Shown here piece after piece: positions 1 to 51,853 of a DNA stretch of 64,000 nucleotides; positions within the stretch are counted from its first letter, which is position 1, and every line of letters starts with the position of its first letter. The notes beneath the pieces were generated by a model, which was not told the origin of the DNA, made no database searches, and saw only the letters and a list, made by a program, of their open reading frames with translations. Location: the NCBI GenBank assembly GCA_016789445.1, contig JAEUQT010000002.1:138321-202320 (forward strand), written 5' to 3'. The DNA is from a bacterium. Its GTDB lineage: Bacteria > Patescibacteriota > Minisyncoccia > Phycocordibacterales > UBA2100. A program made the translations under genes and the position numbers.

Positions 1-3000
1 GCGTCGGCGATATCCTCTATGCTGACTCGACGGGCTCACTGGCGAAGCTCCCGATCGGCGGCGCAGGAACGGTCCTCAAAGTGCAGGGAGGTCTCCCGTC
101 ATGGCAGACGGACCTCACCTCGGGCGGCGGTGGCGGTGCGACGGCATGGTCGACGACGACCGATTCCTTGGCAATCTATCCGACCGACACGACCGATGTT
201 CTCATCGTCGGCTCCAATGCGACTGCTACAACTAATAGCATCTTTGAGGTCTTCGGCCGCTCGTACTTCTCCAACAACGTTGGCATTGGAACCACTTCTC
301 CGGGCTCGATGCTCGCCGTTTCCGGCAACATCCTCGCGAATCGCATTACTGGTGCATTCTTCACCGCGACATCCACGACCGCATCCGTCTTCCCATACGC
401 ATCCACGACGGCACTTAGTGCGACGACACTCTGTCTCGCGTCTGACTGCCGCACCTCGTGGCCGACGGATTCGGAATTCTCCACTACATCCGCAGATTAC
501 TGGAAGACACAGCGTGATTTCTTCAGCACCACCTCCGCCTCATACTTCTCCTCCATCGGCCTCGCGTGGTCCACGACCTCAGCGAACTACTATCTTTCGC
601 AGAACGGCGCGCTCGGCTTCTCAACGACCTCGAATGACTACTGGATGTCGCAGAGGAATTTCTTCTCGACGACGAGTGCGAACTACTGGTCGTCGCTCGG
701 TCTCGGTTTCAGCACCTCGTCTGCAGATGCATGGAAGGACCAGCGGAACTTCTTCTCGACTACGTCCGCCTCATATTTCCTCTCGCAGAATCAGGGTAAC
801 GCGTTTTCGACGACGAGCGCGAACTATTGGGAGACCCAGCAGACCGTACGCACTGCAGACGATCTCACCAACAACTCGATCGAAGACCTGCAGGACGTTG
901 CCGCCATGACCGAGAACTACGGCGATCTCCTCTATTGGAATGGTTCCAGCTGGGCTGATATCGCGACATCGTCGCTCGGACTCCCGACATTCTCCGATCT
1001 CTCGTCGAATCTCGCCAACTACCTCACGCTCGCAGCGTGGTACGCCACCACCACCGATGGCCTCGATGAAGGCGCCACGAATCTTTACTTCACGAATACT
1101 CGAGTACAAACCTACCTCGATACCATCGGCAAGGGATACTTCTTCTCCACGACCAGCGCTGACGCATGGAAGGATCAAAGGAATTTCTTCTCGACGACAT
1201 CGGCGGCGTACTTCACGCACAGCTCGACCACGATCGCGAAGACCTACACGGCAAATGCCTTCACTGCACTCCAGACGTTCACGAACGCTTCGTCCACGCT
1301 TTTCTCCAGCGTCTATGCGTCATCGACTGTGGCAAACATCGGCACGCTTAACCTCGGTTCAGCACTTACGGTATCGAACGGTGGTACGGGTTCGACGACA
1401 CTCACCGGCCTCCTCAAAGGCAACGGTACCGGAGCGATTCAGACGGCAATTCCAGGTGTCGATTACCTCAACTCGACCGCAGGCGACTGGACCGGCACCT
1501 TCGACGGCCAGGAGGGAAGCTACTACCTCGCGAACTCGTTCTCCACATCGAGCGCCAACTACTGGCAGACTACGCGTGACTTCTTCTCCACGACGTCAGC
1601 TATCTACTTCGCACACTCGTCGACGACGATTCCGAAGACCTACACCGCCAATGTCTTCACGGCACTGCAGAACTTCGCAAACGCATCTTCAACGCTCTTC
1701 AGTGCGTCATATGCATCCACCACCAATCTCTTCGCAAACACGGCGTCTACGTCTAACCTCACCATCTCAGCTCTGCAGAATGGACTCTTGAAAGTGAGCG
1801 CCTCCGGCGTCGTCTCGCTCGCAGTTGCGGGGACTGACTACCAGAATTTCGCGTATCCGTTCCCGTCGAATGCAACGTCGACACTTATCAGCTTCAACGG
1901 AGGTCTCACCGCATATGCCTCTTCCACCGTCGGCAACGGCACGCAGACGGGAGGTCTCACCATTTCCGGCGGTGCCACCACGACGGGAAATGCGTACTTC
2001 GCGGGGAATGTGTCCACGGCGATGATACGCGATGGTTCGAACGTCAGTGCAGTGGATGTAGCTAACAGGAGATTGCTCAGTGCCAGCACGGTGAATGCGG
2101 TGGATTTCAGCTCTGCTTCAGCCATAAAGCTTTCCCAATACACGACGAACGGTTTCCTTACGGCTTCGGGTGGCAACGGAACATTGGCTGTCGATACGAC
2201 CCTCTCGACATCCGGTGGTAACCTCGGCGTCGGCACTTCTTCGCCGTATGCCAAGCTTTCCGTCGCAGGAGAAGTAGTAGGCGCGAACTTCACGGCGACC
2301 ACCACCGCAGTCAACACCTTCCCGACGCTTATGAGTACGAACGCATCGACGACGAACTTCGGCATTACGGGCGTCACGAGCGCGCTTCTCGCCACCGACG
2401 CGAACGGTCGCGTGTATGCGACGACCTCCATTTCCTCTGGTCTTCTCAACACCACCGGCGACTGGACCGGCACCTTCGATGGTCAGGAGGGAAGCTACTA
2501 CCTCGCGAACTCGTTCTCAACGACCAGCACGAACTACTGGCAGACGACGCGCAATTTCTTCTCGACGACCTCCGCTGATTACTGGGAGACGCAGCAGACC
2601 GCGCGTACCGCAGACGATCTAACGAACAACTCGATCGAAGACCTGCAGGATGTCGCAGCGATGACCGAGAACTACGGTGACCTCCTCGGATGGAACGGAA
2701 GTACGTGGACTGATTTTGCGACCTCATCACTCGGCATTGCGATCGGGGACACCACCGGAACGCTCAGCGTCTCGCGCGGCGGCACCGGCGCGACATCATT
2801 CACGTCCGGCTCTCTTATCTATGGTTCTGGCACTGGTGCACTTCAGAGTGTTGCAACTACAACAGCAACCATCGGCGGCTCGCTCACATACTCTGGCACC
2901 TTCGGGGCACTCGTCGGCGGTTCATCCGGTACGCTCTCGCTCAACCTCGGCAATGCGAATACGTGGACTGCACTGCAGCAGTTCGGTGCAGGCGCATCTT

Positions 3001-6000
3001 CAACGGCACTCTCCGCATACAACACGATCTCCGTCGGCCGCACCTCAACGACGACCATCCGTGGTGACAACCAGGCAAGCACGTTGCCATACGCATCCAC
3101 GACCGCAATCACTGCAACGACCGCAAGCACGACGAACCTCATCATCTCCGGCCTCAACAATGGTCTCTTGAAGGTGGGTAGCGATGGCACGGTCTCACTT
3201 GCGGTAGTGGGCACCGACTACTCAAATTTCGCCTATCCGTTCCCGTCAAATGCAACGTCGACACTCTTGAGCTTCAACGGTGGCCTTATTGCAAATGCGT
3301 CGTCGAGCATCAATGCGCTCTCATCCGTCATTTCGACTTCGACGAACGCTACGTCGACGACACTCTTCGCAACTGGCTCTCGATTCATCAATGCAACCAC
3401 GACGTCGCTCGGAATCAATAGCGAGACCTTCACCGACCTCACCGGCACCGGTCTTCAGAACGTCGGTGGCGCACTCACGCTCAACGCGACGGGCGACTGG
3501 ACCGGCACCTTCGACGGTCAGGAGGGAAGTTACTACCTCGCGAACTCGTTCTCCACGACATCGGCAGATTACTGGAAGACGCAGCGCGACTTCTTCTCCA
3601 CGACTTCAGCAGTCTACTTCGTCCATTCCTCGACAACAATTCCAAAGACCTACACGGCAAATGCATTCACGGCGCTCCAGAACTTCGCGAACGCATCCTC
3701 CACGCTCTTTAGCGCATCGTACGCATCCACGACTGCGCTCTTCGCCAACACTGCCTCAACCTCCAACCTCACCATCTCCGCACTCCAGAATGGTCTCTTG
3801 AAGGTGAATGCGTCTGGCGTCGTCTCGCTCGCTGTTGCGGGGACTGACTACCAGACCTTCGGGTATCTCTTCCCGAACAATGCAACATCAACATTGCTCG
3901 CATTTAACGGTGGTCTCACCACGACGAACGCAACATCTACAAACGCTACCTCCACTAACGCGCTCTTTGCAAATGTCGGTGCCTTCTCCGTCGCTCGTTT
4001 CGGTGCCACCGCCACTTCCTCATTCGCCTCCAACGGCGCACTCACGCTTGCAACCGCGCTCACCGTCCCGAACGGCGGTACGGGTGCAACTTCTTTCACC
4101 TCCGGCTCGCTCGTGTACGGCTCTGGCACCGGCGCACTGCAGAGTGTCGCGACGACAACAGCAACCCTCGGCGGCAGCCTCTCGTACACCGGCACCTTCG
4201 GCGCGCTCGTCGGTGGTTCGTCCGGCACGCTCTCACTCAACATGGGCAATGCGAACACCTGGACTGCACTCCAGACCTTCGCAAACGCATCCTCGACGCT
4301 CTTCTCCTCGAGCTACGCATCGACGACGAACCTCTTCGCTTTCAACGCATCTACGTCTAACCTCACCATTTCAAGCGTCTCGAATGCGCTCCTCAAGACG
4401 AATGCATCGGGCCAGGTCGCTGCAGCAGTCCTTGGCACCGACTACCAGAACTTCGCGTATCCATTCGGCCTCACCGGCAACGCTACTTCAAGTCTCACAC
4501 AGTTCAACGGCGGCCTCACGGCGTATGCATCATCGACGATCGGTGCAGGTGGCCAGACGACTGGTCTCACCATCTCCGGTGGCGCAACGACAACCGGCTA
4601 CCTCAAGGTACTCAGCACGGCAACTTCAAGCTTCGCCGGCCCGCTTGCTATCACCTCATCCGGCACCTCGACGTTCGCGAACGGCATTCAGCTCTCTGCA
4701 GGCTGCTTCCGCGATGTGAACGGCAACTGTATCGGCAATCAGGACCTCTCCGCATACGTAGACGGGGCAGGCAGCGGATCGACGAATCGCGTCGCCTACT
4801 GGAGCGACAGTAATACGCTGACCTCCGATGCCGACTTCTCATTCGATGGCACGACCGTAACGGCGCGTGATCTTCTCATCCAGCACACGGCGCCGATCCT
4901 CTCCTTGAACGATAGCGATACGACGGGAACCGACTTCCGTCTCGACGTTGCCGATGGTACGGCGACCTTCAAGGCCGATGTTTCGGCAGCGTTATCAAAC
5001 GAATACTTCGCCTGGACGACCAACAACAATGAGAAGATGCGCCTCATCGAATCCGGTAATCTCGGGATCGGCGCCACAGGTCCGCGCGGCCCGCTCGATG
5101 TCATGAAGAATGGCTTCGACGTGCTTGGTACGGGAGACTGGATGGAAGTCGGTCGTTTCGTTGATGCCTCAGAGCTGAAGGGTATCAGCCTCGGGTATGA
5201 CAACAATAACGATGTCTCGCTCATCGCCTCGCATACTGGCGGTGGTGGAGAGAACGGTCTCGCGTTCTGGACATACGGCGGCGGCTGGGGTGAGCGAATG
5301 CGCTTGAGCAATACCGGCAACCTCGGCATCGGCACGACGACGCCGCAGCACAAACTCTCGATTACCGATGCGTCTGCGCCCCAGCTCTCCCTCTCCGCCG
5401 GAGCAGGCATCGCTCAGTGGACCCAGCGCAACGCAGGAGGGAACTTGTACTTCTCGACGACGACCGTCGCGGGTACGGCAACAACGACCATCGCTGCACT
5501 CGAGATCTCCGGCTCAGGATTCGGCACCACCACCGTCCGCGGCCTCAACATCAATGGTCAGGCAACCTCGACATCGAATGTCGGCTTCAACCTCACCGCC
5601 GGCTGCTATGCGATCAATGGGATGTGTATCACCGGCGGTTCGGGCAGCTCGTTCGCGTATCCGTTCAGTCTCACCGGCAACGCGACCTCGACCCTGACTC
5701 AGTTCAATGGCGGATTGACGGCGTACGCATCCACTACTATCGGCGCGGGTGGCCAGACTACAGGCCTCACCATCTCCGGCGGCGCGACGACGACCGGTAA
5801 TGCGTACTTTGCGGGCAATGTCGGCATCAACGTCACCAATCCTTCCGACCGTTTGGAGGTAGAAGGCAATATCAACCTCCGCGACGGTTACCTGACGTTC
5901 CAGAATCAGGGCTATGGTCTCTTCGGGCTCTCGACACCAAGCCTGCTCTTCTACAACGACAGCATCCGCTTCGTGAATAGCGGCAATAATCTCATGCGCG

Positions 6001-9000
6001 TCACGAGCGGCGGCAGCGTCGGCATCGGCACCACCTCCCCGTATGCAAAGCTCTCCGTCGTCGGTGATGTGGTCGGCGCGCGCTTCATCGCTACCACCTC
6101 CACGGCAAGCATCTTCCCGTATGCATCCACGACGGCACTCTCAGCGGCAACACTCTGCCTCACGGGTGATTCCTGCATCGCAGCGTGGCCGACCGGAGGT
6201 GGTGCAGCGTATCCGTTCAGTCTCACCGGTAACGCCACCTCGACCCTGACTCAGTTCAACGGCGGTCTTACCGCATATGCTTCCTCGACAATCGGCGACG
6301 GTACGCAGACCGGAGGACTTATGATTTCTGGAGGTGCAACGACGACCGGAAATTCTTATACGGGGGGTGATGCATATTTCGCAACGAAAGTCGGAATCGG
6401 GACATCTGATCCCGATCTCGTTACTTCAAATCTGACCATAGTCGGGTCGTCTGTATCGCAGAAAATCATCGATAATACCTCGGATTTCATCGCGTTATCG
6501 AAATTAAACCTTGTTGCAGGAGAGACTTTGCCCGTTGATCTAATAATTGCAGCGCAGCGCAGCGCAGCATTTCCCACCTTGGAGTTTGGTGTAATTGGTA
6601 CGCTCTCGAATCATAATCTCGTGTTTGCAACAAATGACGTAGGTCGACTTACAGTTACTGCTGGTGGCAATGTGGGTATTGGTACGACATCGCCGTCTTC
6701 ATTGCTTACTGTATTTTCCACCACATCGCCACAGCTCTCTCTCTCGGCGGGTGGAGGAATCGCCCAATGGACTCAGCGCAACGCGGGTGGCAACCTCTAC
6801 TTTTCTACAACGACACTAGACGGCCTTGCTACCACTTCCCTTGCGGCTCTCTCTATTCGAGGTGCGACAGGTAATGTGGGCGTAGGAACTTCGTCACCGG
6901 GCACGCTCTTCTCGATCGGTAATACCAACGGCGTTAACTTCACTACAGCTACCACAACCTTCGGTGGTACGGGCGGCATTGATTTGCGCAATGGCGGATG
7001 CTTCGCTATCAACGGCACCTGCATCGGCGCAGGTGGAGCAGGAGATGGTGTCGGCAACTGGTTCACCGGCACGACGAACTTCAATGCGGTTGCCAGCGCA
7101 ACGACGACACCGATCTGGCTCCAGAGTGGCGCGAATCTCTTCGCATCATCGACAGTGCGCTTCGGTAACGCCGGTGTCAGTGAGTTCTTCTACAACTCGT
7201 CCATCGGCAACCTCGGTCTTGGCACCACCACGCCGTTTGCCACGCTCCAGATCGCAACGACGACTGGCAAGAATCTCATTCTTTCTGACAGCGGCGCAGG
7301 CATCAACTTGAAGCATTGGCTCTTCTCCTCACGAGGTGGCAATTTCTACATCGGCACCACAACCGATCTCTATGCATCTTCCACCATTGCAGCGCTCACG
7401 CTCAACACCAATGGCAACCTTGGTGTCGGTACCACGACACCGTATGCGAAGCTCTCCGTCGTTGGTGGCGTCGCTGCACAGTACTTCAACTCAGACAGCT
7501 CGACGGCGACCTCCACGTTTGCGGGAGGCCTCAACGTCGGGAATGGTGCGCTTAAATATGATTACTCTGCAGGTCTCACAACCATCCAGAATCTTGCCAT
7601 CGGTGCCATCAATTTCGACGCTGACGGTGGCATTCTCTCGTGGGTAGACATGCCGGTGACTTCGAGCGCAGCCGTGGGAACCGTTGAGAGCTACTCGGCA
7701 CAGATCGATGGTACTTCCATCCTCACCGTCTACAGCGAATCGGACGGTATCGGTGGCATCAAGGCGACCAGCACCAAGATCGGTATCGGTACGACGACGC
7801 CGTTTGCAAAGCTCGCGATCCAGGCTTCCGACGTGCAGACCGCTCCACTTTTCGAGATCGCTTCTACTTCGAGTGCCACGAAGTTCCTCTCGGTTTCGGG
7901 TACCGGCTTCGGCACCACCACCCTCTCGGGCCTCAACATCTCCGGCAGCGCAACCTCCACCTCGAACGTCGGCTTCAACATCACGGCGGGGTGCTATGCG
8001 ATCAATGGGACATGTATTACTGGCGGCGGAGGCGGGGGCTCCGGCGGGGGCTCGTGGTCCACGACAACCTCGCCAGTCTCTGGCCAATTGGTGAATTATC
8101 CGAACAATGCCACGGATGTCGTTGCGATTGGCTCCAACTCGACGACGACCGCAGAATACTGGTTCGATCCGAATGCGGGCATTTCATATCTTTCTGGAAA
8201 TGTTGGTATTGGTACACTGAATCCTGTATCTTCACTTGATTTGGGTCCCGCTGCGAATGGTCGGGGTATCGCATGGGGAGGTTCTTCCGGTAACGCGAAC
8301 TACAGCAATATTTTTTCTTCTTACAGCGCAGCCGCTCTAGTACTTGCCACTGGACTTCGTGCATCAACGACCGCGGATGTTTATGAGTCCAGTTACGGGT
8401 CTTCCATCTCACGCACCGCAATCCGCTTGAACCCGTACGGTTCAAACGCGGCTGGCTCAATTCAATTCTTTACTGACAGCGCTTCTACCGTAGCCGTTGG
8501 GACTGCGATCACTCCCACGGAGCGCGTACGTATTACTTCGAATGGTAGTGTCGGGATCGGAACAAGCACGCCGTATTCTGGAGACAAACTCAGTATCTAT
8601 GGTGGCAATTTGTTCCTAGCGAATACTGCGTCCCCGCAAATCGTTCTCAAGGATGGAGCTCAATCTAACAATAATCTAGGGTTCCGCTCGGTTTCGGGCG
8701 TCGGTCACATTGGACGATTCAATGATAACGGTACTCTTTCCAGCTTTATACAGACCTTCGATCTGTCGACTGGCAATGTCGGCATAGGTTCGACGACCCC
8801 ATGGGCGAAACTCTCTATCGTCGGTAACCATGGCGTGCCGCAGTTCATCATCGCGACGACGTCTGATCCGAGCGGCGACGGTCAGCATCCGCTCTTCATC
8901 GTCCAGTCGACGACCACCGGTAAGCTCAACTACCAGCGTATCGGTATGGGTACGACGACGCAGTGGGGCAATGCAGGCCTGCGCGATCAGCTCGTCGTCG

Positions 9001-10778
9001 ATGGCCGTATCTACTCAACGTGGCGCTATGCAGGATGTGATTTCGTCGGTGGACATTTGATCGCTGCACTTACCGCAGATACCGCGAACATTTGTGGACC
9101 ATTTTCTCTCGACGTTCAAGGAACAGTGACGGGTGCGCTGGGTAGCGCGTATCCGGGCTACTATGAAATTCGCTCAGGAACGGTACCTGCTGCGAATACC
9201 GGTACGACATTCCGCACGTGGAGTCATGTTGCTTCAGCAACCACTAGCCCGGTCATGGAGGCGATGGTGCAAATCGGATCCGCCGGTACCGCAACGACAA
9301 CGCCACTTTTCCTGGTCGGTTTCTACGGATCTGCCTCAGCGACGACTACGCCAGGTACGTTACCGGCCAATGGTGCGTACTTCGTGGCAACTTCGACAAA
9401 TACGTGGCGACTCGTTACGCGTAAAACCAATGTAGAGACCATAACTGAAACGAATATCGCAACCTCATCGACCTCATTCCAGCGATTGCGTGTCGAATTG
9501 ACCGATCAGGAGGCAACGTTCTTAATCAACGGTAATGTTGTTGGTCGCCATACGACGAATATTCCAGTAACGTACCTATCTCCTGCTGCGATTTCCGCTA
9601 TCGCAGGCGGTGCGACTTCGGGCACATCGGGCGCGTACCGCGCCCTCCGTATCTCGATGTTCCGTCTTTGGGTGGATGATCCGCCAGGAGGAATACCGAT
9701 TGCTGGAACAGAAACAGAAGATCTCTATAACCCAATAGAAGGTGCCGACATAGCAGAAGCGTATCTTGCAGACGATCCTATCAAGATGATCGAAGGCAGT
9801 ATCGTTTCGAACGCAACGACCACCGAAAAACATATTGCACGTTCGAGCGGACGTTACGATTCCCAGATCATGGGCGTTATCGCAACGTCGCCAAAGATGG
9901 TGCTTGGTGATGAAGCTTCGACCACTGTACGCGTCGGCATGGTCGGTCGCGTGCCGGTCATCGTTTCCCTCGAAAACGGCGCTATCAAGAAGGGTGATCC
10001 GATCACTTCATCGAGCCTGACAGGTATCGGTATGAAGGCTCGCCGCCCAGGTGCTATCGTCGGCAAGACGCTCGCAGGATTCGACCCGGAGAATAATGTC
10101 GGCTTCTGCGATGCTGAACTTAAGCAGCAGCTCACCGACCTGGGCGTACCGGTCACCTCAGATGGCTGCTACGGCCGCGTGCTCGTCGTCCTCGACGCCG
10201 ACTTCGACATGGGCATCGGCGAGATCGTCCAAGACGCGATGACGAGCGTTACCAACTTCGGCGCGGCGATGGACGAGCTCATGAATACTGCCTTCGAGAA
10301 GGGCGCTGAGCTCACCAAGTTCGTCGTCGGCAACATTGTCGCGAAGATCGCCATCATCGAGAAGCTCTTCGTCAGGGAGACCCACACCCAGACGCTCTGC
10401 ATCGCAGATGGCAACGGCTCGGAAACCTGCATTACCAAGGCGCAGCTCGACGCGCTCCTGGCGAATGTCGGCGTCGCTGCCGCTCCGCAGCCCCAGTCGG
10501 AACCAGAAACGCAGCCGGACGGAAACGCATCCTCGACGCCACCGACCGATTCTGGAAATGGTAATGCAAGCTCAACCCCGCCTGTCGCTGAAGGCGGTTC
10601 GGGCTCCGACGGCTCGTCCGAAGCGCCAGAAGAGACACCTCCTGCAGAAGAAGCTCCTGCCGAGGAACCGCCTACCGAAGCAGAGCCTGAGCCGACCCCT
10701 CAGCCGGAACCCGAACCAGCCCCGGCTCCTGAAGAGCCAGCAGGAGAGACCGCAGCCGCCCCTGAAGATGCTTCATAG
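1..10778 (+). CDS. giant repetitive cell-surface protein, 5'-partial (frame open to window edge; >3,590 aa)
   Basis: The frame is open from nt 3, and the ORF-track start at 81 is an internal GTG. The protein is S/T/G/A-rich with hierarchical repeats. FSTTSA(D/N)YW(K/E)TQR(D/N)FFSTTSA units occur many times. GDWTGTFDGQEGSYYLANSFSTTS occurs at ~1480, ~2450 and ~3490, giving a 1-kb period. FAYPF(P/S)..NATSTL..FNGGLTAYASSTIG occurs at ~1850, 4450, 5650 and 6210, and GIGTTSPYAKLSVVG units recur. A non-repetitive C-terminal domain (~9650-10480) is followed by a Pro/Glu-rich tail. Confidence 0.8.
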   Translation, partial: VGDILYADSTGSLAKLPIGGAGTVLKVQGGLPSWQTDLTSGGGGGATAWSTTTDSLAIYPTDTTDVLIVGSNATATTNSIFEVFGRSYFSNNVGIGTTSPGSMLAVSGNILANRITGAFFTATSTTASVFPYASTTALSATTLCLASDCRTSWPTDSEFSTTSADYWKTQRDFFSTTSASYFSSIGLAWSTTSANYYLSQNGALGFSTTSNDYWMSQRNFFSTTSANYWSSLGLGFSTSSADAWKDQRNFFSTTSASYFLSQNQGNAFSTTSANYWETQQTVRTADDLTNNSIEDLQDVAAMTENYGDLLYWNGSSWADIATSSLGLPTFSDLSSNLANYLTLAAWYATTTDGLDEGATNLYFTNTRVQTYLDTIGKGYFFSTTSADAWKDQRNFFSTTSAAYFTHSSTTIAKTYTANAFTALQTFTNASSTLFSSVYASSTVANIGTLNLGSALTVSNGGTGSTTLTGLLKGNGTGAIQTAIPGVDYLNSTAGDWTGTFDGQEGSYYLANSFSTSSANYWQTTRDFFSTTSAIYFAHSSTTIPKTYTANVFTALQNFANASSTLFSASYASTTNLFANTASTSNLTISALQNGLLKVSASGVVSLAVAGTDYQNFAYPFPSNATSTLISFNGGLTAYASSTVGNGTQTGGLTISGGATTTGNAYFAGNVSTAMIRDGSNVSAVDVANRRLLSASTVNAVDFSSASAIKLSQYTTNGFLTASGGNGTLAVDTTLSTSGGNLGVGTSSPYAKLSVAGEVVGANFTATTTAVNTFPTLMSTNASTTNFGITGVTSALLATDANGRVYATTSISSGLLNTTGDWTGTFDGQEGSYYLANSFSTTSTNYWQTTRNFFSTTSADYWETQQTARTADDLTNNSIEDLQDVAAMTENYGDLLGWNGSTWTDFATSSLGIAIGDTTGTLSVSRGGTGATSFTSGSLIYGSGTGALQSVATTTATIGGSLTYSGTFGALVGGSSGTLSLNLGNANTWTALQQFGAGASSTALSAYNTISVGRTSTTTIRGDNQASTLPYASTTAITATTASTTNLIISGLNNGLLKVGSDGTVSLAVVGTDYSNFAYPFPSNATSTLLSFNGGLIANASSSINALSSVISTSTNATSTTLFATGSRFINATTTSLGINSETFTDLTGTGLQNVGGALTLNATGDWTGTFDGQEGSYYLANSFSTTSADYWKTQRDFFSTTSAVYFVHSSTTIPKTYTANAFTALQNFANASSTLFSASYASTTALFANTASTSNLTISALQNGLLKVNASGVVSLAVAGTDYQTFGYLFPNNATSTLLAFNGGLTTTNATSTNATSTNALFANVGAFSVARFGATATSSFASNGALTLATALTVPNGGTGATSFTSGSLVYGSGTGALQSVATTTATLGGSLSYTGTFGALVGGSSGTLSLNMGNANTWTALQTFANASSTLFSSSYASTTNLFAFNASTSNLTISSVSNALLKTNASGQVAAAVLGTDYQNFAYPFGLTGNATSSLTQFNGGLTAYASSTIGAGGQTTGLTISGGATTTGYLKVLSTATSSFAGPLAITSSGTSTFANGIQLSAGCFRDVNGNCIGNQDLSAYVDGAGSGSTNRVAYWSDSNTLTSDADFSFDGTTVTARDLLIQHTAPILSLNDSDTTGTDFRLDVADGTATFKADVSAALSNEYFAWTTNNNEKMRLIESGNLGIGATGPRGPLDVMKNGFDVLGTGDWMEVGRFVDASELKGISLGYDNNNDVSLIASHTGGGGENGLAFWTYGGGWGERMRLSNTGNLGIGTTTPQHKLSITDASAPQLSLSAGAGIAQWTQRNAGGNLYFSTTTVAGTATTTIAALEISGSGFGTTTVRGLNINGQATSTSNVGFNLTAGCYAINGMCITGGSGSSFAYPFSLTGNATSTLTQFNGGLTAYASTTIGAGGQTTGLTISGGATTTGNAYFAGNVGINVTNPSDRLEVEGNINLRDGYLTFQNQGYGLFGLSTPSLLFYNDSIRFVNSGNNLMRVTSGGSVGIGTTSPYAKLSVVGDVVGARFIATTSTASIFPYASTTALSAATLCLTGDSCIAAWPTGGGAAYPFSLTGNATSTLTQFNGGLTAYASSTIGDGTQTGGLMISGGATTTGNSYTGGDAYFATKVGIGTSDPDLVTSNLTIVGSSVSQKIIDNTSDFIALSKLNLVAGETLPVDLIIAAQRSAAFPTLEFGVIGTLSNHNLVFATNDVGRLTVTAGGNVGIGTTSPSSLLTVFSTTSPQLSLSAGGGIAQWTQRNAGGNLYFSTTTLDGLATTSLAALSIRGATGNVGVGTSSPGTLFSIGNTNGVNFTTATTTFGGTGGIDLRNGGCFAINGTCIGAGGAGDGVGNWFTGTTNFNAVASATTTPIWLQSGANLFASSTVRFGNAGVSEFFYNSSIGNLGLGTTTPFATLQIATTTGKNLILSDSGAGINLKHWLFSSRGGNFYIGTTTDLYASSTIAALTLNTNGNLGVGTTTPYAKLSVVGGVAAQYFNSDSSTATSTFAGGLNVGNGALKYDYSAGLTTIQNLAIGAINFDADGGILSWVDMPVTSSAAVGTVESYSAQIDGTSILTVYSESDGIGGIKATSTKIGIGTTTPFAKLAIQASDVQTAPLFEIASTSSATKFLSVSGTGFGTTTLSGLNISGSATSTSNVGFNITAGCYAINGTCITGGGGGGSGGGSWSTTTSPVSGQLVNYPNNATDVVAIGSNSTTTAEYWFDPNAGISYLSGNVGIGTLNPVSSLDLGPAANGRGIAWGGSSGNANYSNIFSSYSAAALVLATGLRASTTADVYESSYGSSISRTAIRLNPYGSNAAGSIQFFTDSASTVAVGTAITPTERVRITSNGSVGIGTSTPYSGDKLSIYGGNLFLANTASPQIVLKDGAQSNNNLGFRSVSGVGHIGRFNDNGTLSSFIQTFDLSTGNVGIGSTTPWAKLSIVGNHGVPQFIIATTSDPSGDGQHPLFIVQSTTTGKLNYQRIGMGTTTQWGNAGLRDQLVVDGRIYSTWRYAGCDFVGGHLIAALTADTANICGPFSLDVQGTVTGALGSAYPGYYEIRSGTVPAANTGTTFRTWSHVASATTSPVMEAMVQIGSAGTATTTPLFLVGFYGSASATTTPGTLPANGAYFVATSTNTWRLVTRKTNVETITETNIATSSTSFQRLRVELTDQEATFLINGNVVGRHTTNIPVTYLSPAAISAIAGGATSGTSGAYRALRISMFRLWVDDPPGGIPIAGTETEDLYNPIEGADIAEAYLADDPIKMIEGSIVSNATTTEKHIARSSGRYDSQIMGVIATSPKMVLGDEASTTVRVGMVGRVPVIVSLENGAIKKGDPITSSSLTGIGMKARRPGAIVGKTLAGFDPENNVGFCDAELKQQLTDLGVPVTSDGCYGRVLVVLDADFDMGIGEIVQDAMTSVTNFGAAMDELMNTAFEKGAELTKFVVGNIVAKIAIIEKLFVRETHTQTLCIADGNGSETCITKAQLDALLANVGVAAAPQPQSEPETQPDGNASSTPPTDSGNGNASSTPPVAEGGSGSDGSSEAPEETPPAEEAPAEEPPTEAEPEPTPQPEPEPAPAPEEPAGETAAAPEDAS

Positions 10779-10802
10779 AGAATAGTCGAGTAGAATAGCG
10801 CC

Positions 10803-11789
10803 ATGTCCGTCCGTGCGACGACGAAATGGTGGGTTGTATTGGGTATTTTTGTGTTCGGTTTCGGTGTGGGGTATCTCGTCCGCTACGCATTACCGCACGG
10901 CCACGCTGTTTCGCGCATCGGAGAAATCCGCGAGCGCAGCGGCGGCACGCTTACGAACCCGCTTCTCGAATGCACCGAATTACCGGAAAGCATCTCGGTA
11001 GGAGAACGACGTGATCTCGAGAGCAGGGTACAACGCATGATCGATGCGAAGAAGCAGGACGGCACGCTCACCGAAGCCGCTGTCTATTACCGCGATCTCA
11101 ATAACGGCCCGTGGTTCGGTATCCGCGAGGATGTGAAGTTTTCGCCTGCCTCGCTCCTTAAGGTGCCACTCGCCATGTGGTACTACTCGAAGGCAGACGA
11201 GGATCCCAGCATTCTCGAACAAGCCATCGAATTCAAAGGGCCGCGCGGCGTAAGCTACGTCAATTTCCCCCCGAGGATGCAACTTGAAGAAGGGAAGACG
11301 TATACCATCGAGGCGCTTATCCAGTACATGTTGCAGGAGAGCGATAATGACGCGGCGAACATCCTCGATGAATTCGGCGGCAGAGAGAAATCTGCCGATG
11401 TGTACCGTGATTTCGGCATCCAGCCATCCAACACGAGCGACGCATACGTCATCGACGTGCACACATACGCGTCATTCTTCCGTATCCTCTACAACGCCAC
11501 GTACATCGGCCGCGCACATTCCGAGCATCTTCTGGAAATCCTCAGTCGGTCGTCATTCACCCAGGGCCTACGCGCAGGTGTCCCGGAGAACGTCGTCGTG
11601 GCGCATAAATTCGGAGAAAAAGTGCTTGATGCGGAAACGAACACCTACCAGCTCCATGATTGCGGTATTGTCTATACAGGGAATACGCCGTATTCTCTTT
11701 GCGTCATGACGCAGGGGAAGGACATCGCCCAGCTTGCCAGCTTCATCAAAGACGTCTCCGCTCTCGTCTTTAGCGAGGTGACCCGATAA
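10803..11789 (+). CDS. beta-lactamase-fold (class A-like) serine hydrolase, membrane-anchored
   Basis: N-terminal TM helix. SxxK motif (SLLK), SDN motif (ESDNDAANIL), a KTG-like HKFGE, and HDCGIVY are present. Confidence 0.65.
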   Translation: MSVRATTKWWVVLGIFVFGFGVGYLVRYALPHGHAVSRIGEIRERSGGTLTNPLLECTELPESISVGERRDLESRVQRMIDAKKQDGTLTEAAVYYRDLNNGPWFGIREDVKFSPASLLKVPLAMWYYSKADEDPSILEQAIEFKGPRGVSYVNFPPRMQLEEGKTYTIEALIQYMLQESDNDAANILDEFGGREKSADVYRDFGIQPSNTSDAYVIDVHTYASFFRILYNATYIGRAHSEHLLEILSRSSFTQGLRAGVPENVVVAHKFGEKVLDAETNTYQLHDCGIVYTGNTPYSLCVMTQGKDIAQLASFIKDVSALVFSEVTR

Positions 11790-11792
11790 ACC

Positions 11793-12788
11793 ATGCGCTT
11801 TTTTACCAAGACTCCGGTCAGTGCCGTGCTAACCGCGAGTGCGCTTGTCGGCGTCGGCATCGCTATCGGATTCTGGGTTATTCCGCATGGTTCTCACGAG
11901 GCGAAACGTTTTTTCGCAGATGTACGAAATGCGGAGAATGAAGGACGTCTCACCAATCAGCTTCTGGAATGCACCGAGCTGCCAGAGGGGATTTCCATCG
12001 GTGGGCGCATAAATCTGGAACAGCAGATCCAGGAGAAGGTGGATGTGCTGAAGCGTGAGGGGAAACTGACCGAAGCTGCCGTCTACTATCGCGACCTCAA
12101 CAACGGCCCGTGGTTCGGCATCAACGAAGATGTTCCGTATTACCCGGCCTCACTCCTGAAAGTCCCGCTCGCCATAGCCTTCTATCGCCGTGATCAGGAG
12201 GGTCCCGGATTCCTCCAGACGAGAGCCGTGTTTGAAAGTACCGGCCAGGATTTCGAGGCGGGGCAAGCGTTCGGTTCGGCGAAGCGTTTGGAGGGCGGGG
12301 CGGAATATTCGCTCGAAGATTTGATTGCGATCATGCTGCAGGATTCGAGCAACGAAGCAGCGCTCCTCTTGACGCAGATAGCCGGAGAGGAGAATGTACT
12401 CGATGTGTATGAGGATATCGGCATCCCCGCACCGCAATTCGGCAAGGACTACCAGATCAATGTGCACACCTTCGGCTCATTCTTCCGCATCCTCTTCAAT
12501 GCCACCTATCTCGATCGCGCACATTCGGAACGGATCCTCTCTATCCTCACAAAATCCAGCTTCACGCAGGGAATCCAGGCAGGACTCCCCGAAGGCACGC
12601 TGGCTGCACACAAGTTCGGCACGCGCGAAGTCGGCGACGTTCGTCAGCTCCATGACTGCGGCATCGTCTATGCGCCCGGTAAGCCGTATATCCTCTGTGT
12701 CATGACGCAGGGAACGGACTTTGACATGCTCGCGGACTTCATCAAAGAAGTCTCTGGTACCATTTACTCGGCGGTTGCCACCCAGTGA
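11793..12788 (+). CDS. beta-lactamase-fold serine hydrolase, tandem paralogue
   Basis: Collinear with the previous gene: YYRDLNNGPWFGI..ASLLKVPLA, SSN replacing SDN, HKFGTRE, HDCGIVYAPG. N-terminal TM helix. Confidence 0.65.
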   Translation: MRFFTKTPVSAVLTASALVGVGIAIGFWVIPHGSHEAKRFFADVRNAENEGRLTNQLLECTELPEGISIGGRINLEQQIQEKVDVLKREGKLTEAAVYYRDLNNGPWFGINEDVPYYPASLLKVPLAIAFYRRDQEGPGFLQTRAVFESTGQDFEAGQAFGSAKRLEGGAEYSLEDLIAIMLQDSSNEAALLLTQIAGEENVLDVYEDIGIPAPQFGKDYQINVHTFGSFFRILFNATYLDRAHSERILSILTKSSFTQGIQAGLPEGTLAAHKFGTREVGDVRQLHDCGIVYAPGKPYILCVMTQGTDFDMLADFIKEVSGTIYSAVATQ

Positions 12789-12800
12789 TACAATTAAAGA

Positions 12801-13343
12801 ATGCGTAGTGTGCGCTTGAAATACGTCATTCCGGCGATACTTCTTGTGCTGCTTCTATGCGCAGTAGCGGGGTATTTCAAGCTCCAGGAGAATGGGGCTA
12901 TGAATGCCGCGGCAGCTGCGCCGTATATCGTCCCGCCGATCCAGGATACGTATACGAATACCACTCTCGGCTTCTCACTCGGCTTGCCCGACGGCTTCGC
13001 CGTGCAAGAATTTGAAGAAGAGGGTGGTGTGAGGACGGTCGTATTGCAGGATCCACAAGGGAACGGCATTCAGATCCTGGCGACACCGCTGAAGGAAGAC
13101 ATCCCGCACCTTTCTATTGAAATGGTGAAGCGGGACATTCCCGACATGAAGGTGAGCGATGTGCGGCTGGTCGAAATCGGTGAAGGCCGTACCGGTGTCG
13201 CATTCAAGAGTGACAACGAAGCATTCGGTGGTGCGTCGCGCGAGGTGTGGTTCGTCTTCCGCGGACACATCTACCAGATTTCCACCTACGCGCGGCTCGA
13301 TGAATTGCTACAATCAATGTTCACCACGTGGCAGTTCATATGA
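12801..13343 (+). CDS. hypothetical membrane-anchored protein
   Basis: Good ORF with an N-terminal hydrophobic helix (IPAILLVLLLCAVAG). No recognisable motif. Confidence 0.45.
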   Translation: MRSVRLKYVIPAILLVLLLCAVAGYFKLQENGAMNAAAAAPYIVPPIQDTYTNTTLGFSLGLPDGFAVQEFEEEGGVRTVVLQDPQGNGIQILATPLKEDIPHLSIEMVKRDIPDMKVSDVRLVEIGEGRTGVAFKSDNEAFGGASREVWFVFRGHIYQISTYARLDELLQSMFTTWQFI

Positions 13344-15816: not shown

Positions 15817-17256
15817 ATGCGAAAAGGGATCGCGTTCGTACTTGGTGTCATTGTGCTCATACCAGCAGCAACACAGGCGCAGAGCGTGAAATTTTCGGTC
15901 AGTTTCCCGAAGGTGTATGACGAATGGATGCGTGATGAACCGAAGCATGTCAACCACCTCACGGTCAATGCATTCCAGGGCAGTGTCGAATACAAGGCCC
16001 GCGTCGTGAATGCTGATACCGGCCAGGTGGTAGCTTCAGGTTCGACGGTGCCGCAGGGAACCAAGCTCAAGTTCGAGTTCCTGCCTGAGACGATGTCATG
16101 GCATACGAGCGGCTCCGTCTACGATACGCCGTATGCGTACTGGACTCAGAATATGCCTCCTGCACCAGTGTGCGCTACCGCGGACAGGATCATCAACGAG
16201 ACGGGTAAGACATTCAGGGGTAAAGTCAGCGGAAAGAATATCTTTTCACCTGTGTATGCGGTTCCTCCGGCAAAATCGGCGCAGAATGCATCCGCTCTCG
16301 GCACCTGCACCACACCCGCGGATGGCGATATTACCTGCACGGCAAGTGTCGTGGGCACGCACACTGTTACTTTCAATTTCAATGCGAGTAAGGCCTATCA
16401 CTATCTCCGCATCTACAATATGGATGTTTCGCGCGATTCTTCGCCAGCAAGCCGATGGCCGCGCGTTAATAAATGCGAACCACTCGGTATCCTGAGCGGT
16501 ATCCGTGATTTCTCAGGTGGAGCGACGAACGAGCCGCGCAGCACGGTCACGCTTCCTGCGAAATCCATCCCGTTCACGGTGAAAGTGGCAGAAGGAGTCC
16601 CGCCGACCGAAGGGCCGCAGACGCCGATGGTTTCTGCGGCTGGTGGGCGCTGCACCATTGACGTTCCGCATACGATTTCTATGACCGCAAGTCACACTGA
16701 AAATAAAAATATCCGCTATCTGATCGATTGGAACAATGACGGCTCAACGGACCAGACGATTCCTGCAAGCGGGTATGTCGCTGCGGGCTCATCGCAATCA
16801 GTCAGCCGTACGTACACCGTGGTTGGTCGCAAGGATATCGCGGTGCGTGCTCAGGATGAAGACGGCGCTCTCTCGCCGTGGGCTGCATTCTCGTTCACCT
16901 GCGATCATTCTTCCTCTTCCGATACCGCAGGTCTCTCAGGCGAAGATACTGCCGGTCTCGGAAATGACGGTGTTCCTCCTGCGCCAAGCGTAAACGATCT
17001 CTCGTTACGTGCCCTTCCGTCGCTCGTGCGCCTCGGAGGTACGACCAAGGTGCACTGGTCCTCGCAGAACATGTCGTCATGCACCGTTACCGGCTCGAAT
17101 GACGACAGCTGGAGTGGGCTCAACTCTCCCGCAGGCGGTGAAGGCAGTGGTGCAATCAACGGCCTCGTCACATACACCCTGACCTGCCGCGTTGGCGGTG
17201 AGACGTTCACCAAGACGGCAACCGTGAATGTGCTGCCGAGTTGGGTGGAAAAATAA
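15817..17256 (+). CDS. secreted protein with PKD-like domain and conserved C-terminal Ig-like domain
   Basis: Signal peptide. PKD-like segment IRYLIDWNNDGSTDQ...FSFTC. C-terminal 85 aa (LSLRALPSLVRLGGTTKVHWSSQNMSSCTVTG...TATVNVLPSWVEK) shared with the 18781 gene. TATAAT lies 4 nt upstream of the ATG. Confidence 0.6.
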   Translation: MRKGIAFVLGVIVLIPAATQAQSVKFSVSFPKVYDEWMRDEPKHVNHLTVNAFQGSVEYKARVVNADTGQVVASGSTVPQGTKLKFEFLPETMSWHTSGSVYDTPYAYWTQNMPPAPVCATADRIINETGKTFRGKVSGKNIFSPVYAVPPAKSAQNASALGTCTTPADGDITCTASVVGTHTVTFNFNASKAYHYLRIYNMDVSRDSSPASRWPRVNKCEPLGILSGIRDFSGGATNEPRSTVTLPAKSIPFTVKVAEGVPPTEGPQTPMVSAAGGRCTIDVPHTISMTASHTENKNIRYLIDWNNDGSTDQTIPASGYVAAGSSQSVSRTYTVVGRKDIAVRAQDEDGALSPWAAFSFTCDHSSSSDTAGLSGEDTAGLGNDGVPPAPSVNDLSLRALPSLVRLGGTTKVHWSSQNMSSCTVTGSNDDSWSGLNSPAGGEGSGAINGLVTYTLTCRVGGETFTKTATVNVLPSWVEK

Positions 17257-17288
17257 GCACTTATTTTATTAGGTATCAATCGCAATTT

Positions 17289-18749: not shown

Positions 18750-18780
18750 GTACGGCTTAGGTCTCGATACATAACAATTT

Positions 18781-23092: not shown

Positions 23093-23114
23093 CGAGCAGG
23101 GTATAATGAATCGA

Positions 23115-27826: not shown

Positions 27827-27866
27827 ATCGGGATTCTATCACGCACGAAGATGCTATGATTCCCGC

Positions 27867-45730: not shown

Positions 45731-45902
45731 GGGAATCGGATCTAAGAAAGAGGCGGGCAGCCATTGTCCGCCTCTTGACTTTTGGTCAAAATGTGATAGC
45801 ATATCTCCCAGAGGGTCCTGAATGCCGATTTGGGCGCTTAAACAGTCCCTAAATCGGCCTTCGGGACAATCCGAACTGGTCTTTAACTTAACCGGAGGGA
45901 GA

Positions 45903-51724: not shown

Positions 51725-51853
51725 TTCACGAATAGTACAGTTATGTTGGCTTTGAGCAAAGCTACAACAGGGAATTGACAAATAAACATATTTGTCACAG
51801 AGTAATTTTAGGAGGCGAATTCCTCGCTTCTGGAAGGTAAAGGAAGAAAGTGC

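What the first reader, a model, noticed from the sequence alone, without database searches (positions are those of the whole stretch)
1..10778. 5'-truncated >3,500-aa surface protein with nested repeat hierarchy and compositionally distinct cassettes
One ORF fills 10.8 kb and continues beyond the window edge. Short STT-rich units sit inside ~1-kb super-repeats, and 55-aa FAYPF..TGNATSTL..FNGGLTAYASSTIG units recur four times. Two internal segments (~6330-6700 and ~8100-8800) are visibly more AT-rich than the rest and are not repeats. This suggests cassette-like mosaicism within an adhesin. A non-repetitive C-terminal domain and a Pro/Glu-rich tail end the protein. In a reduced genome, a protein this large is a candidate host-attachment or surface-layer fibre.
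Basis: partly seen in the sequence, partly recalled or inferred. Interest (0 to 1): 0.5.

Follow-up and report, generated by a model that had tools for sequence, protein, structure and literature searches.

The report
Giant phage-fibre-like surface protein, Patescibacteria
This is the last 3,591 residues of a giant cell-surface fibre of an ultra-small (Patescibacteria/CPR) bacterium, built from phage tail-fibre parts, tipped with a sugar-binding-type head and a phage-type self-cleaving folding domain, and visibly patched together by recombination; it is probably a host-attachment fibre from a large but uncharacterised family.

The parts
3..10778 (+). Giant ORF, 5'-truncated by the window edge: 3,591 codons plus a stop at 10776-10778
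   Evidence: No stop in frame 3 from nt 3. Homologues are 1,600-5,777-aa Patescibacteria proteins.
477..3647 (+). Ser/Thr-rich repeat zone. 15-aa FSTTSAxYW units lie in clusters at aa 159-282, 381-410, 513-542, 838-867 and 1183-1212, inside ~1-kb and 2-kb super-repeats.
   Evidence: Direct-repeat families D1-D9 at 72-82% nt identity, dot plot, unit list.
1848..6371 (+). Span holding the FAYPF..FNGGLTAYASSTIG..GGLTISGGATTTGN units. Full copies start at nt 1848, 4452, 5652 and 6204; degenerate copies start at nt 3228 and 3858.
5061..8834 (+). Zone of beta-helix-type fibre modules, each with a capping-loop motif ([VIL]G[IVL][GN][TSA]xxPxxx[LIVF], e.g. GNVGIGTTSPYAKLSV). Ten of the 12 strict motifs lie here; the other two are at aa 93 and 741.
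   Evidence: 12 motifs against 0.009 expected in shuffles. PDB sequence hit to Bd3182 (8ojn_C), E 0.0026, on this module. PHROG tail-fibre families phrog_9942 (1.5e-19) and phrog_18345 at aa ~2763-2954. ~30% identity to cyanophage tail fibres.
6264..6896 (+). Low-GC3 cassette 1 (aa 2088-2298), GC3 0.43
   Evidence: Change-point analysis; z = -8.7 to -9.3 after correcting for amino-acid content. The left junction lies inside FAYPF copy 6. The core is a rare module with only weak homologues.
8181..8834 (+). Low-GC3 cassette 2: the deepest dip is nt 8181-8366 (GC3 0.27), followed by 0.53. It starts at a GNVGIGT motif.
   Evidence: Few and weak homologues.
8835..9722 (+). Concanavalin-A-like jelly-roll head (aa 2945-3240), the probable glycan-binding (or glycan-cleaving) tip
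9747..9758 (+). DIAE motif (D3249-E3252): putative autocleavage site, predicted between A3248 and D3249
   Evidence: The family HMM aligns it to phi29 gp12 S691|D692-F-A-E695. 22.9 bits against 10.7 for the best of 2,000 shuffles. D, A and E are 92, 92 and 89% conserved in 302 family domains.
9723..10208 (+). Beta-tulip domain (aa 3241-3402), phi29 gp12 C-terminal intramolecular-chaperone type
10209..10499 (+). Long helix (aa ~3405-3455; probably a coiled coil, low confidence as a monomer) and a two-Cys beta-hairpin LCIADGNGSETCITKAQLDALL (aa ~3461-3490). Largely coincides with the high-GC3 (0.87) segment at nt 10122-10499.
   Evidence: The same hairpin ends many homologues.
10500..10775 (+). 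Pro/Glu/Ala-rich, probably disordered tail (aa 3500-3591), with no sortase or TM signal
   Evidence: Homologues carry similar tails, some followed by an Ig-like DUF5011 domain.
10803..12788 (+). Two tandem, N-terminally membrane-anchored class-A beta-lactamase-like genes (PF13354), 51% identical to each other. They are syntenic neighbours of the giant gene.
   Evidence: Synteny in L001-L003, L005-L008, L011 and L013. Paralogy.

Best explanation
The window holds the C-terminal 3,591 residues of a chromosomal Patescibacteria gene for a giant extracellular fibre, probably ~5,000 aa in full.

Shown:
- The fibre is a chain of phage-tail-fibre-type modules. These are Ser/Thr-rich repeat units, then beta-helix modules carrying the capping-loop motif of S74 phage fibres and Bdellovibrio MAT fibres.
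- It ends in a ConA-like jelly-roll head, a beta-tulip domain of the phi29 gp12 C-terminal chaperone type, a long helix, a two-Cys hairpin and a Pro/Glu tail.
- Codon usage is a mosaic.

Inferred:
- The missing N-terminus is a cytoplasmic HTH-like domain plus one transmembrane helix, as in the closest relative. This would anchor the fibre in the cell membrane.
- The chains trimerise from the C-terminus under the control of the gp12-like domain. That domain then cuts itself off between A3248 and D3249, using the conserved D-x-A-E motif.
- Cleavage leaves the ConA-like head as the distal tip, which binds a surface glycan of the host cell.
- The gene diversifies as phage fibre genes do. Conserved motifs (GNVGIGT, FNGGL) act as recombination joints, so modules are duplicated, shuffled and imported from related lineages of different GC content. 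This would retarget or lengthen the fibre.
For: Chromosomal and cellular context:
- The neighbouring genes are GAPDH, RpiB, RPE, split transketolase, FBA, RF, PheT, GyrB, ThrRS, DnaE, NusB and SMC.
- 13 related loci are all in Patescibacteria MAGs. The order giant gene -> beta-lactamase-like gene(s) is kept in 9 of them (a tenth, L013, has the bla-like pair but a different adjoining ORF), with GAPDH further downstream in 5 loci.

Family:
- 340 homologues have E <= 1e-10, and the listed ones are 1,648-5,076 aa.
- Only the last ~640-740 aa are collinear between loci.
- Each ~100-aa module has its best match (70-90%) in a different protein at a different position.

Fibre nature:
- PHROG tail-fibre hits.
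- Sequence hit to Bd3182 (8ojn_C) on the capping-loop module. Bd3182 is a trimeric beta-helix with capping loops R656-H669 (PMC10769870).
- 12 such motifs against 0.009 expected.

Chaperone:
- HMM alignment of A|DIAE to S691|DFAE695.
- Motif conservation of ~90%.
- Mature gp12* ends at residue 691 (PMC6542822), and its chaperone domain is absent from virions (PMC9863714).
- A transitive sequence link to Pfam PF11962 through P0040, P0098 and P0139.

Anchor:
- 61 of 120 homologues start with an HTH-like domain. 56 of the 60 in which it is N-terminal have a hydrophobic helix after it.
- The closest relative's gene, L001 (65% identical in the chaperone region), has such an N-terminal piece, P0037, giving ~5,200 aa in all.

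Mosaic:
- GC3 segments with z down to -9.
- A junction inside FAYPF copy 6: about 18 nearly identical codons, then a run of synonymous changes with GC3 falling from 0.75 to 0.42.
- Related lineages have giant genes with GC3 of 0.45-0.76, so lower-GC donors exist.
Against: - No experiment or expression data exist for this protein or family. Trimerisation, cleavage, surface exposure and host binding are all inferred.
- The window lacks the N-terminus, so the HTH/TM anchor is extrapolated. Other homologues instead have a signal peptide plus a GVPxILNYQGRL domain.
- Pfam Peptidase_G2 does not hit the window protein directly.
- Some homologues carry an Ig-like DUF5011 domain after the Pro-rich tail. 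Some have the beta-tulip domain in the middle of the protein. Both fit poorly with a simple 'cleave and discard' chaperone.
- The ConA-like head could be an enzyme (GH16- or PL7-like) rather than a lectin. No catalytic motif was established either way.
- No donor was found for cassette 1: the best hit is 69% over 36% of it.
- A chimeric metagenome assembly across a shared repeat could imitate the recombination junction.
Confidence: 0.65

Rival explanations
1. It is a structural surface-layer or sheath component, a passive coat or spacer, and not a host-binding adhesin. The lectin-like head would bind the cell's own wall polymers.
For: Very high Thr/Ser/Gly/Ala content (50%) and long repeats. 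Conserved chromosomal position next to envelope-type genes. No direct evidence of host binding.
Against: The architecture is that of receptor-binding fibres: a variable distal head, a phage-type chaperone and tail-fibre modules. The fibre part is not collinear even between related genomes, which fits diversifying rather than structural constraint. Half of the homologues are anchored by a single N-terminal TM helix rather than forming a lattice.
Confidence: 0.15
2. It is a phage tail-fibre gene belonging to a prophage or a misbinned viral contig.
For: PHROG tail-fibre hits, a gp12-like chaperone and many viral structural matches.
Against: No phage genes flank it. The neighbours are housekeeping genes across the whole 64 kb. 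The locus is syntenic in at least 10 Patescibacteria genomes. No relative of the C-terminal module was found in IMG/VR, and the chaperone region has no match in cultured-phage records. At more than 3,591 aa, with a TM anchor in relatives, it is unlike virion fibres.
Confidence: 0.03
3. The compositional 'cassettes' are not biological. They are chimeric joins made by a metagenome assembler between co-occurring strains or species at shared repeat motifs.
For: The junction lies in a repeat unit. Related loci nearly always end inside this gene, and L001 has frame breaks, showing that assemblers struggle here. Relatives with GC3 of ~0.45-0.5 exist.
Against: The frame stays open across all six change points over 10.8 kb. 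The intragenic repeats are only 72-82% identical, so long exact k-mers are scarce. Other surface-protein genes in the window also have deviant GC3: 13328-15733 at 0.51 and 45822-46427 at 0.47.
Confidence: 0.15
4. The C-terminal beta-tulip domain is a permanent trimerisation or binding cap, like phage decoration proteins, and is not a self-cleaving chaperone. The mature tip would be the whole C-terminus, including the Pro/Glu tail.
Against: The best structural match is the gp12 chaperone itself. The D-x-A-E cleavage motif aligns with gp12 and is ~90% conserved at the domain's first residues.
Confidence: 0.3

Closest known systems
Bdellovibrio bacteriovorus MAT (mosaic adhesive trimer) fibre proteins, e.g. 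Bd3182, Bd2133 (Caulton et al. 2024, PMC10769870)
   Same: Both are cellular, not viral. Both are phage-tail-fibre-like fibres built of beta-helix modules with the same capping-loop motif: Bd3182 has RVGVGTTAPTSALH and the window protein has GNVGIGTTSPYAKLSV. Both have exchangeable C-terminal tip domains (beta-sandwich or lectin types), are used by a bacterium that lives on other bacteria, and have a mosaic 'tip-swapping' architecture.
   Different: MAT proteins are ~1,000 aa, with a signal peptide and a conserved ~130-aa N-terminal domain. They end either in an S74 chaperone or in a tip with no chaperone. The window protein is more than 3,591 aa. It has long Ser/Thr-rich repeat arrays, a ConA-like head followed by a gp12 (G2)-type chaperone, and relatives anchored by HTH plus a TM helix. 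Sequence similarity is weak (E 0.0026, one module).
Bacteriophage phi29 gp12 pre-neck appendage (tail spike) and its C-terminal autocleaving intramolecular chaperone (MEROPS/Pfam Peptidase_G2, PF11962; PDB 3GQH)
   Different: No direct Pfam hit. Here the domain is followed by ~190 further residues (helix, Cys hairpin, Pro/Glu tail). It is preceded by a jelly-roll head rather than a beta-helix depolymerase. It is a cellular protein of giant size. Cleavage is untested.
S74 (endosialidase-type) intramolecular chaperone fibres: K1F endosialidase, T5 pb1, and many of this protein's own homologues (PF13884)
   Same: The same overall logic of a C-terminal chaperone on a trimeric fibre. The capping-loop modules are shared, and many homologues of the fibre part do end in S74.
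   Different: This protein has no S74 domain or SDxxxK motif. A different, G2-type domain takes that position.
Giant surface proteins reported for CPR bacteria (e.g. Vampirococcus lugosii, PMC8080830)
   Same: Multi-thousand-residue, membrane-associated proteins in reduced-genome epibionts, proposed to mediate host recognition and attachment.
   Different: Those reports list WD40, TPR, PKD and similar domains. In the papers found here they do not describe a tail-fibre or gp12-chaperone architecture.
MyRF, the eukaryotic membrane-bound transcription factor with a phage-derived intramolecular chaperone (PMC8326128)
   Same: As in the HTH/TM-type relatives, one polypeptide combines a DNA-binding domain, a membrane span and a phage tailspike-type trimerising, self-cleaving module.
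   Different: MyRF uses S74, and its cleavage releases the DNA-binding domain on the same side of the membrane. Here the chaperone is at the far extracellular end. The HTH part is not in the window, and nothing shows that it is ever released.

Membership tests
Peptidase_S74 / endosialidase-type intramolecular chaperone (PF13884) | Sequence match to the S74 profile, with the catalytic Ser-Lys (SDxxxK) motif at the C-terminus | tested here: not met
   No Pfam hit at E <= 0.1 on the whole protein or at E <= 1 on aa 3240-3491. The structural best match is a different fold family.
Peptidase_G2 / phi29 gp12 C-terminal intramolecular chaperone (PF11962) | Fold of the gp12 C-terminal fragment (beta-tulip barrel) | tested here: met
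Peptidase_G2 / phi29 gp12 C-terminal intramolecular chaperone (PF11962) | Cleavage-site motif at the domain start (gp12 S691|D692-x-x-E695) | tested here: met
   A3248|D3249-I-A-E3252 aligns to S|DFAE. 22.9 bits against at most 10.7 in 2,000 shuffles. D, A and E are ~90% conserved in 302 domains. That D692 and E695 are the catalytic residues is from my memory of Xiang et al. 2009 and was not verified here. That mature gp12* ends at 691 is from PMC6542822.
Peptidase_G2 / phi29 gp12 C-terminal intramolecular chaperone (PF11962) | Significant match to the Pfam profile | tested here: not met
   No direct hit. There is only a transitive link: the homologous domains of P0040, P0098 and P0139 reach 27-30 bits (cut-off 25) and BLAST-align to the window domain.
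Peptidase_G2 / phi29 gp12 C-terminal intramolecular chaperone (PF11962) | Actual autoproteolysis and release of the domain after trimer assembly | not testable with these tools
   Needs expression and mass spectrometry.
MAT (mosaic adhesive trimer) superfamily of Bdellovibrio | Beta-helix fibre modules with the capping-loop consensus motif | tested here: met
   phmmer hit to Bd3182 (8ojn_C), E 0.0026, across the motif. 12 strict motifs against 0.009 expected. Motif as described in PMC10769870.
MAT (mosaic adhesive trimer) superfamily of Bdellovibrio | Signal peptide followed by a conserved ~130-aa beta-rich N-terminal domain | not testable with these tools
   The N-terminus lies outside the window. 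Relatives have either HTH plus TM, or a signal peptide plus GVPxILNYQGRL. Whether the latter equals the MAT N-domain was not tested.
MAT (mosaic adhesive trimer) superfamily of Bdellovibrio | Intertwined homotrimer | not testable with these tools
   Only monomer models could be made. The long helix has low confidence as a monomer.
MAT (mosaic adhesive trimer) superfamily of Bdellovibrio | Variable adhesive C-terminal tip domain | tested here: met
   ConA-like jelly-roll head. Homologues of the fibre carry other ends: S74, G2, DUF5011, LVIVD and Gly_rich_2.
Concanavalin A-like lectin/glucanase superfamily | Beta-jelly-roll sandwich fold | tested here: met
Concanavalin A-like lectin/glucanase superfamily | Catalytic motif of an enzyme family (GH16 ExDxxE; PL7 RxEL/QIH/YFKAG in order) | tested here: inconclusive
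   No ExDxxE is seen. PL7-like strings (VQIG, GAYFVAT, RVEL) are present but in the wrong order (reading). No residue-level structural alignment was available.

The most novel reading that the evidence does not exclude
The full-length protein, as in the half of its relatives that start with an HTH_17-like domain and one TM helix, could be a membrane-tethered DNA-binding protein fused to a >1,000-aa (often several-thousand-aa) extracellular phage-type fibre. This would be a bacterial analogue of eukaryotic MyRF. Engagement of the host-binding tip, or assembly and cleavage of the fibre, would be signalled across the membrane to gene expression in an ultra-small epibiont. In parallel, cassette exchange between Patescibacteria lineages would retarget host range, as it does in phages.
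Probability: 0.08. Interest if true: 0.85.

Novelty: new variant of a known kind. Interest (0 to 1): 0.5.

Why it matters
How ultra-small Patescibacteria recognise and hold on to their hosts is largely unknown. Type IV pili and unnamed 'adhesins' are the current candidates (PMC11665869, PMC10633639). This gene belongs to a very large family: 8,011 cluster representatives share its C-terminal cap. I found no description of that family in the searchable literature. It appears to reuse the phage receptor-binding tool-kit of modular trimeric fibre, swappable head and self-cleaving chaperone, at five times the size of the Bdellovibrio MAT fibres. If that is right, it gives concrete, testable candidates for host-range determinants in CPR bacteria, with a defined cleavage site and head domain to express. 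It would also explain why these genomes assemble so badly at this locus.

Tried and rejected
- Pfam, NCBIfam and PDB sequence searches on the whole protein or its C-terminus gave nothing. The N-terminal half gave only a chance CheY hit.
- I first took the terminal hairpin for a K1-lyase_C domain, because homologues P0013 and P0006 hit PF24146. Reading those sequences showed that the domain replaces the window's Cys hairpin, so the window does not have it.
- A search for a donor of cassette 1 found only partial hits to flanking motifs.
- An exact 30-mer from the window start was absent from the metagenome contigs. A neighbour protein was not on record. The window's own protein is not in the 5.8-billion-protein set; the best hit is 50% identical. 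The 5' end therefore could not be recovered.
- Patterns from the C-terminal module found no relatives in IMG/VR. tblastn of the chaperone region found nothing in cultured phages.
- The afdb50 fold library was unavailable.
- A first binary-segmentation script under-segmented GC3 and was replaced by an optimal-partition script.
- Tandem Repeats Finder sees almost nothing because the repeats are diverged and interspersed. Recent slippage-type repeat-number variation is therefore not indicated.
- The prophage idea was rejected on context.
Full report
**1. The observation**

Frame 3 is open from nt 3 to the stop at nt 10776-10778. That is 3,591 codons with no stop in the first 80 nt, so the gene runs off the 5' edge of the window. 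The protein is 50% Thr+Gly+Ser+Ala.

A fragment-against-self BLASTP dot plot shows two repeat regimes:
- aa 1-1650 hold super-repeats at 55-88% identity.
- aa 1760-3000 hold weaker (20-60%) module repeats.
- aa ~2945-3591 are unique.

At the DNA level the repeats are only 72-82% identical, with spacings of 975, 1035, 1296, 1755 and 2010 nt. Tandem Repeats Finder sees essentially nothing. There are fifteen 15-aa FSTTSAxYW units in clusters (a sixteenth regex match at aa 2238 is only a chance FSTTS). The ~55-aa FAYPF..FNGGLTAYASSTIG..GGLTISGGATTTGN unit has four full copies (aa 616, 1484, 1884, 2068) and two degenerate ones (aa 1076, 1286).

**2. The AT-rich segments**

The sliding GC profile confirms dips to 0.47 at nt ~6300-6750 and to 0.50-0.53 at nt ~8100-8850. 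When the profile is split by codon position, the dips are almost wholly in GC3. GC3 falls from 0.70 to 0.42, while GC1 and GC2 stay flat.

An optimal-partition change-point analysis on GC3 gives these segments:

| nt range | GC3 |
|---|---|
| 3-6263 | 0.71 |
| 6264-6896 | 0.43 |
| 6897-8180 | 0.69 |
| 8181-8366 | 0.27 |
| 8367-10121 | 0.54 |
| 10122-10499 | 0.87 |
| 10500-10775 | 0.46 |

GC3 expected from each segment's amino-acid content was computed with per-residue codon preferences, taken either from 22 other genes of the window or from aa 1-2087 of the gene itself. On that basis the deviations are z = -9, -7, -4 to -6, and +4. Other genes of the window average GC3 0.67 (sd 0.09 for 100-codon windows). 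Two of them are also low: 13328-15733 and 45822-46427.

The left edge of cassette 1 can be seen directly. FAYPF copy 6 (nt 6204) and copy 5 (nt 5652) are nearly identical for about 18 codons. After that the amino-acid sequence stays conserved but almost every codon differs synonymously, and GC3 falls from 0.75 to 0.42. That is the signature of a recombination joint inside a conserved motif. The right edge of cassette 1 and the left edge of cassette 2 both fall at GNVGIGT motifs, within the ±20-codon resolution of the method.

'Not repeats' is only partly true. The core of cassette 1 is unique in the protein, but its flanks are diverged copies of other modules.

No donor was found. Related lineages do have giant genes with GC3 from 0.45 to 0.76, so lower-GC relatives exist as possible sources. 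A chimeric assembly could imitate this pattern and cannot be excluded without reads. Against it, the frame survives all six change points.

**3. Context**

The remaining 53 kb encode housekeeping functions: GAPDH, RpiB, RPE, a split transketolase, class II FBA, RF, PheT, GyrB, ThrRS, DnaE, NusB and SMC, plus one tRNA-Thr. This is a cellular chromosome with the reduced central metabolism typical of Patescibacteria.

The C-terminal module finds 13 loci in GTDB species genomes, all of them Patescibacteria MAGs. In every one the open frame reaches the start of the contig or of the fetched flank. In L006 and L007 it exceeds 3,724 aa. In 9 loci the giant gene is followed directly by one or two membrane-anchored beta-lactamase-like genes (L013 holds the same pair next to an unrelated ORF), as in the window (nt 10803-12788), and GAPDH lies further downstream in 5 loci. 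It is therefore a conserved chromosomal locus, not a prophage.

**4. The family**

A search with aa 1-2944 returns 340 proteins at E <= 1e-10. The 120 listed are 1,648-5,076 aa and almost all come from Parcubacteria/Paceibacteria-type genomes. They carry varied extra Pfam domains: S74, Peptidase_G2, Gly_rich_2, LVIVD, DUF5011 and HTH_17.

Mapping 120-aa fragments of the window protein onto these homologues shows a patchwork. Each module has its best hit (70-90%) in a different protein at a different position. The two low-GC3 cassettes are rare modules, hit by 2-6 proteins (2-34 across cassette 2) at 40-48%. Between the 13 loci only the last ~640-740 aa are collinear, at 40-51% identity.

Full-length homologues show two kinds of N-terminus:
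- 61 of 120 start with an HTH_17-like domain, and 56 of the 60 in which that domain is N-terminal have a hydrophobic helix after it.
- Most of the others have a signal peptide followed by GVPxILNYQGRL.

In the closest relative, L001 (65% identical in the chaperone region), the gene is broken into three frames. Its N-terminal piece is P0037 (1,792 aa, HTH type), and the pieces add up to ~5,200 aa. The window protein probably lacks about 1,500 residues, but this is extrapolation.

**5. The fibre**

PHROG tail-fibre families hit aa ~2763-2954: phrog_9942 at 1.5e-19 and phrog_18345 at 1.7e-9. tblastn finds ~30% identity to cyanophage tail-fibre and 'chaperone of endosialidase' genes.

A PDB sequence search hits 8ojn_C (E 0.0026) across '...RLTVTAGGNVGIGTTSPSSLLTV...'. 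8OJN is Bd3182, a member of the Bdellovibrio 'mosaic adhesive trimer' (MAT) family. It is an intertwined trimeric beta-helix whose clefts are closed by 'capping loops' (R656-H669, RVGVGTTAPTSALH). This motif is shared with S74 phage fibres and MyRF (PMC10769870). The same pattern occurs 12 times in the window protein (aa 93-2926, ten of them after aa 1687), against 0.009 expected.

The C-terminal half of the fibre is therefore a chain of MAT/S74-type beta-helix modules. The fold of the Ser/Thr-rich N-terminal half remains unassigned.

**6. The C-terminus**

An HMM built from 302 family domains aligns the start of the domain, 'GA-DIAEAY', to gp12 'WS-DFAEYF', that is, to S691|D692..E695. It scores 22.9 bits against 10.7 for the best of 2,000 shuffles. 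Mature gp12* ends at residue 691 (PMC6542822), and its intramolecular chaperone is absent from virions (PMC9863714). In the family, D, A and E of the motif are 92, 92 and 89% conserved.

Pfam PF11962 does not hit the window directly. It does hit the homologous domains of P0040, P0098 and P0139, which BLAST-align to the window domain. It is the gp12 (G2) type, not S74.

After the domain come three elements:
- a ~50-aa helix, low confidence as a monomer, as expected for a coiled coil
- a two-Cys hairpin, LCIADGNGSETCITKAQLDALL, shared with many homologues
- the Pro/Glu tail

An exhaustive HMMER search with aa 3241-3499 finds 8,011 cluster representatives (1,855 at E <= 1e-10). Most hits lie near the C-terminus of proteins of up to 5,777 aa.

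**7. Mechanism**

Shown:
- modular tail-fibre-like composition
- ConA-like head
- gp12-type domain with a conserved cleavage motif
- synonymous-site mosaic
- chromosomal synteny

Inferred:
- The protein is anchored by an N-terminal TM helix and extends outward as a trimer.
- The C-terminal domain nucleates trimer folding and then cleaves at A3248|D3249, exposing the head as the distal tip, which binds a host-surface glycan.
- Conserved motifs serve as recombination joints for module gain, loss and import.

Points that do not fit neatly:
- Some homologues have an Ig-like domain after the tail.
- Some have internal copies of the beta-tulip domain.

Cleavage may therefore not mean disposal, or may not occur in every member.

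**8. Novelty**

Giant surface proteins of CPR bacteria have been noted in general terms (PMC8080830). The giant-gene survey I read deals with other phyla. Searches combining Patescibacteria or CPR with tail fibre, giant proteins, intramolecular chaperone or adhesin found no description of this architecture.

The parts are all known kinds. The combination, the size and the HTH/TM-anchored relatives make it a new variant of the MAT/phage-fibre kind rather than something categorically new. Interest is moderate (0.5). It gives concrete handles on CPR host recognition, but function is inferred and the family is already abundant, unnamed, in the databases.

Noticed in passing
window 10803-12788 (+); also L001-L003, L005-L008, L011, L013: Two tandem paralogues (51% identical) of a membrane-anchored class-A beta-lactamase-like protein (PF13354) lie immediately downstream of the giant gene. 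This adjacency is conserved in at least 9 related Patescibacteria genomes, which suggests a functional link such as cell-wall or host-wall peptidase activity.
   Followed up: partly
homologues P0025, P0027, P0037, P0038, P0043, P0045, P0066, P0077, P0082, P0083, P0138 and others (not in the window): 61 of 120 giant homologues begin with an HTH_17/excisionase-like domain, then a charged helix and one TM helix. P0038 and P0043 have the HTH duplicated. A DNA-binding-type domain on the cytoplasmic end of a giant extracellular fibre is unexplained.
   Followed up: partly
window 13328-15733 (+): An 801-aa secreted protein with two Laminin_G_3 (ConA-like) domains and a Gly-rich N-terminal region. Its GC3 is only 0.51 against ~0.67 for its neighbours, so it is another compositionally deviant surface-protein gene. 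Homologues lie near the giant gene in L005 and L006.
   Followed up: partly
window 15817-20214 (+): Three consecutive genes for ~480-500-aa proteins with signal or TM-like N-termini and no confident Pfam family. The first and third are 39% identical paralogues.
   Followed up: partly
window 57093-58052 (+): One ORF combines a NusB domain (aa 18-147) with a NUDIX hydrolase domain (aa 200-292). This is an unusual fusion if the ORF is real; it has a TTG start.
   Followed up: no
window 23046-24966 (+): Transketolase is encoded as two separate genes, an N-terminal TPP-binding half and a pyrimidine-binding/C-terminal half, that overlap by 14 nt.
   Followed up: no
window 45822-46427 (+) and 49955-52144 (-): A 201-aa ORF of unknown function has GC3 of 0.47 (GC 0.51), and the ThrRS gene has GC3 of 0.58 (GC 0.51). 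Both are well below the window mean, so compositional heterogeneity is not confined to the giant gene.
   Followed up: no
L001 1-11128 (JBBTXY010000003.1): In the closest relative the orthologous giant gene is split into three overlapping frames: P0037 ends near L001:902, then 883-8607, then 8117-11128. This is either assembly frameshifts in repeats or a pseudogene.
   Followed up: partly
window 27510-28718 (+): The class II fructose-bisphosphate aldolase domain starts only at residue 122 of the 402-aa ORF. Either there is an N-terminal extension or the true start is downstream.
   Followed up: no
P0138 C-terminus (homologue, not in the window): One 4,407-aa homologue ends in a sequence that looks like the start of an intein/Hint-type element (…CVTGDTRLRRRR…TANHPFLA…). 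Some family members may therefore carry inteins, or the protein may be truncated at a contig end.
   Followed up: no
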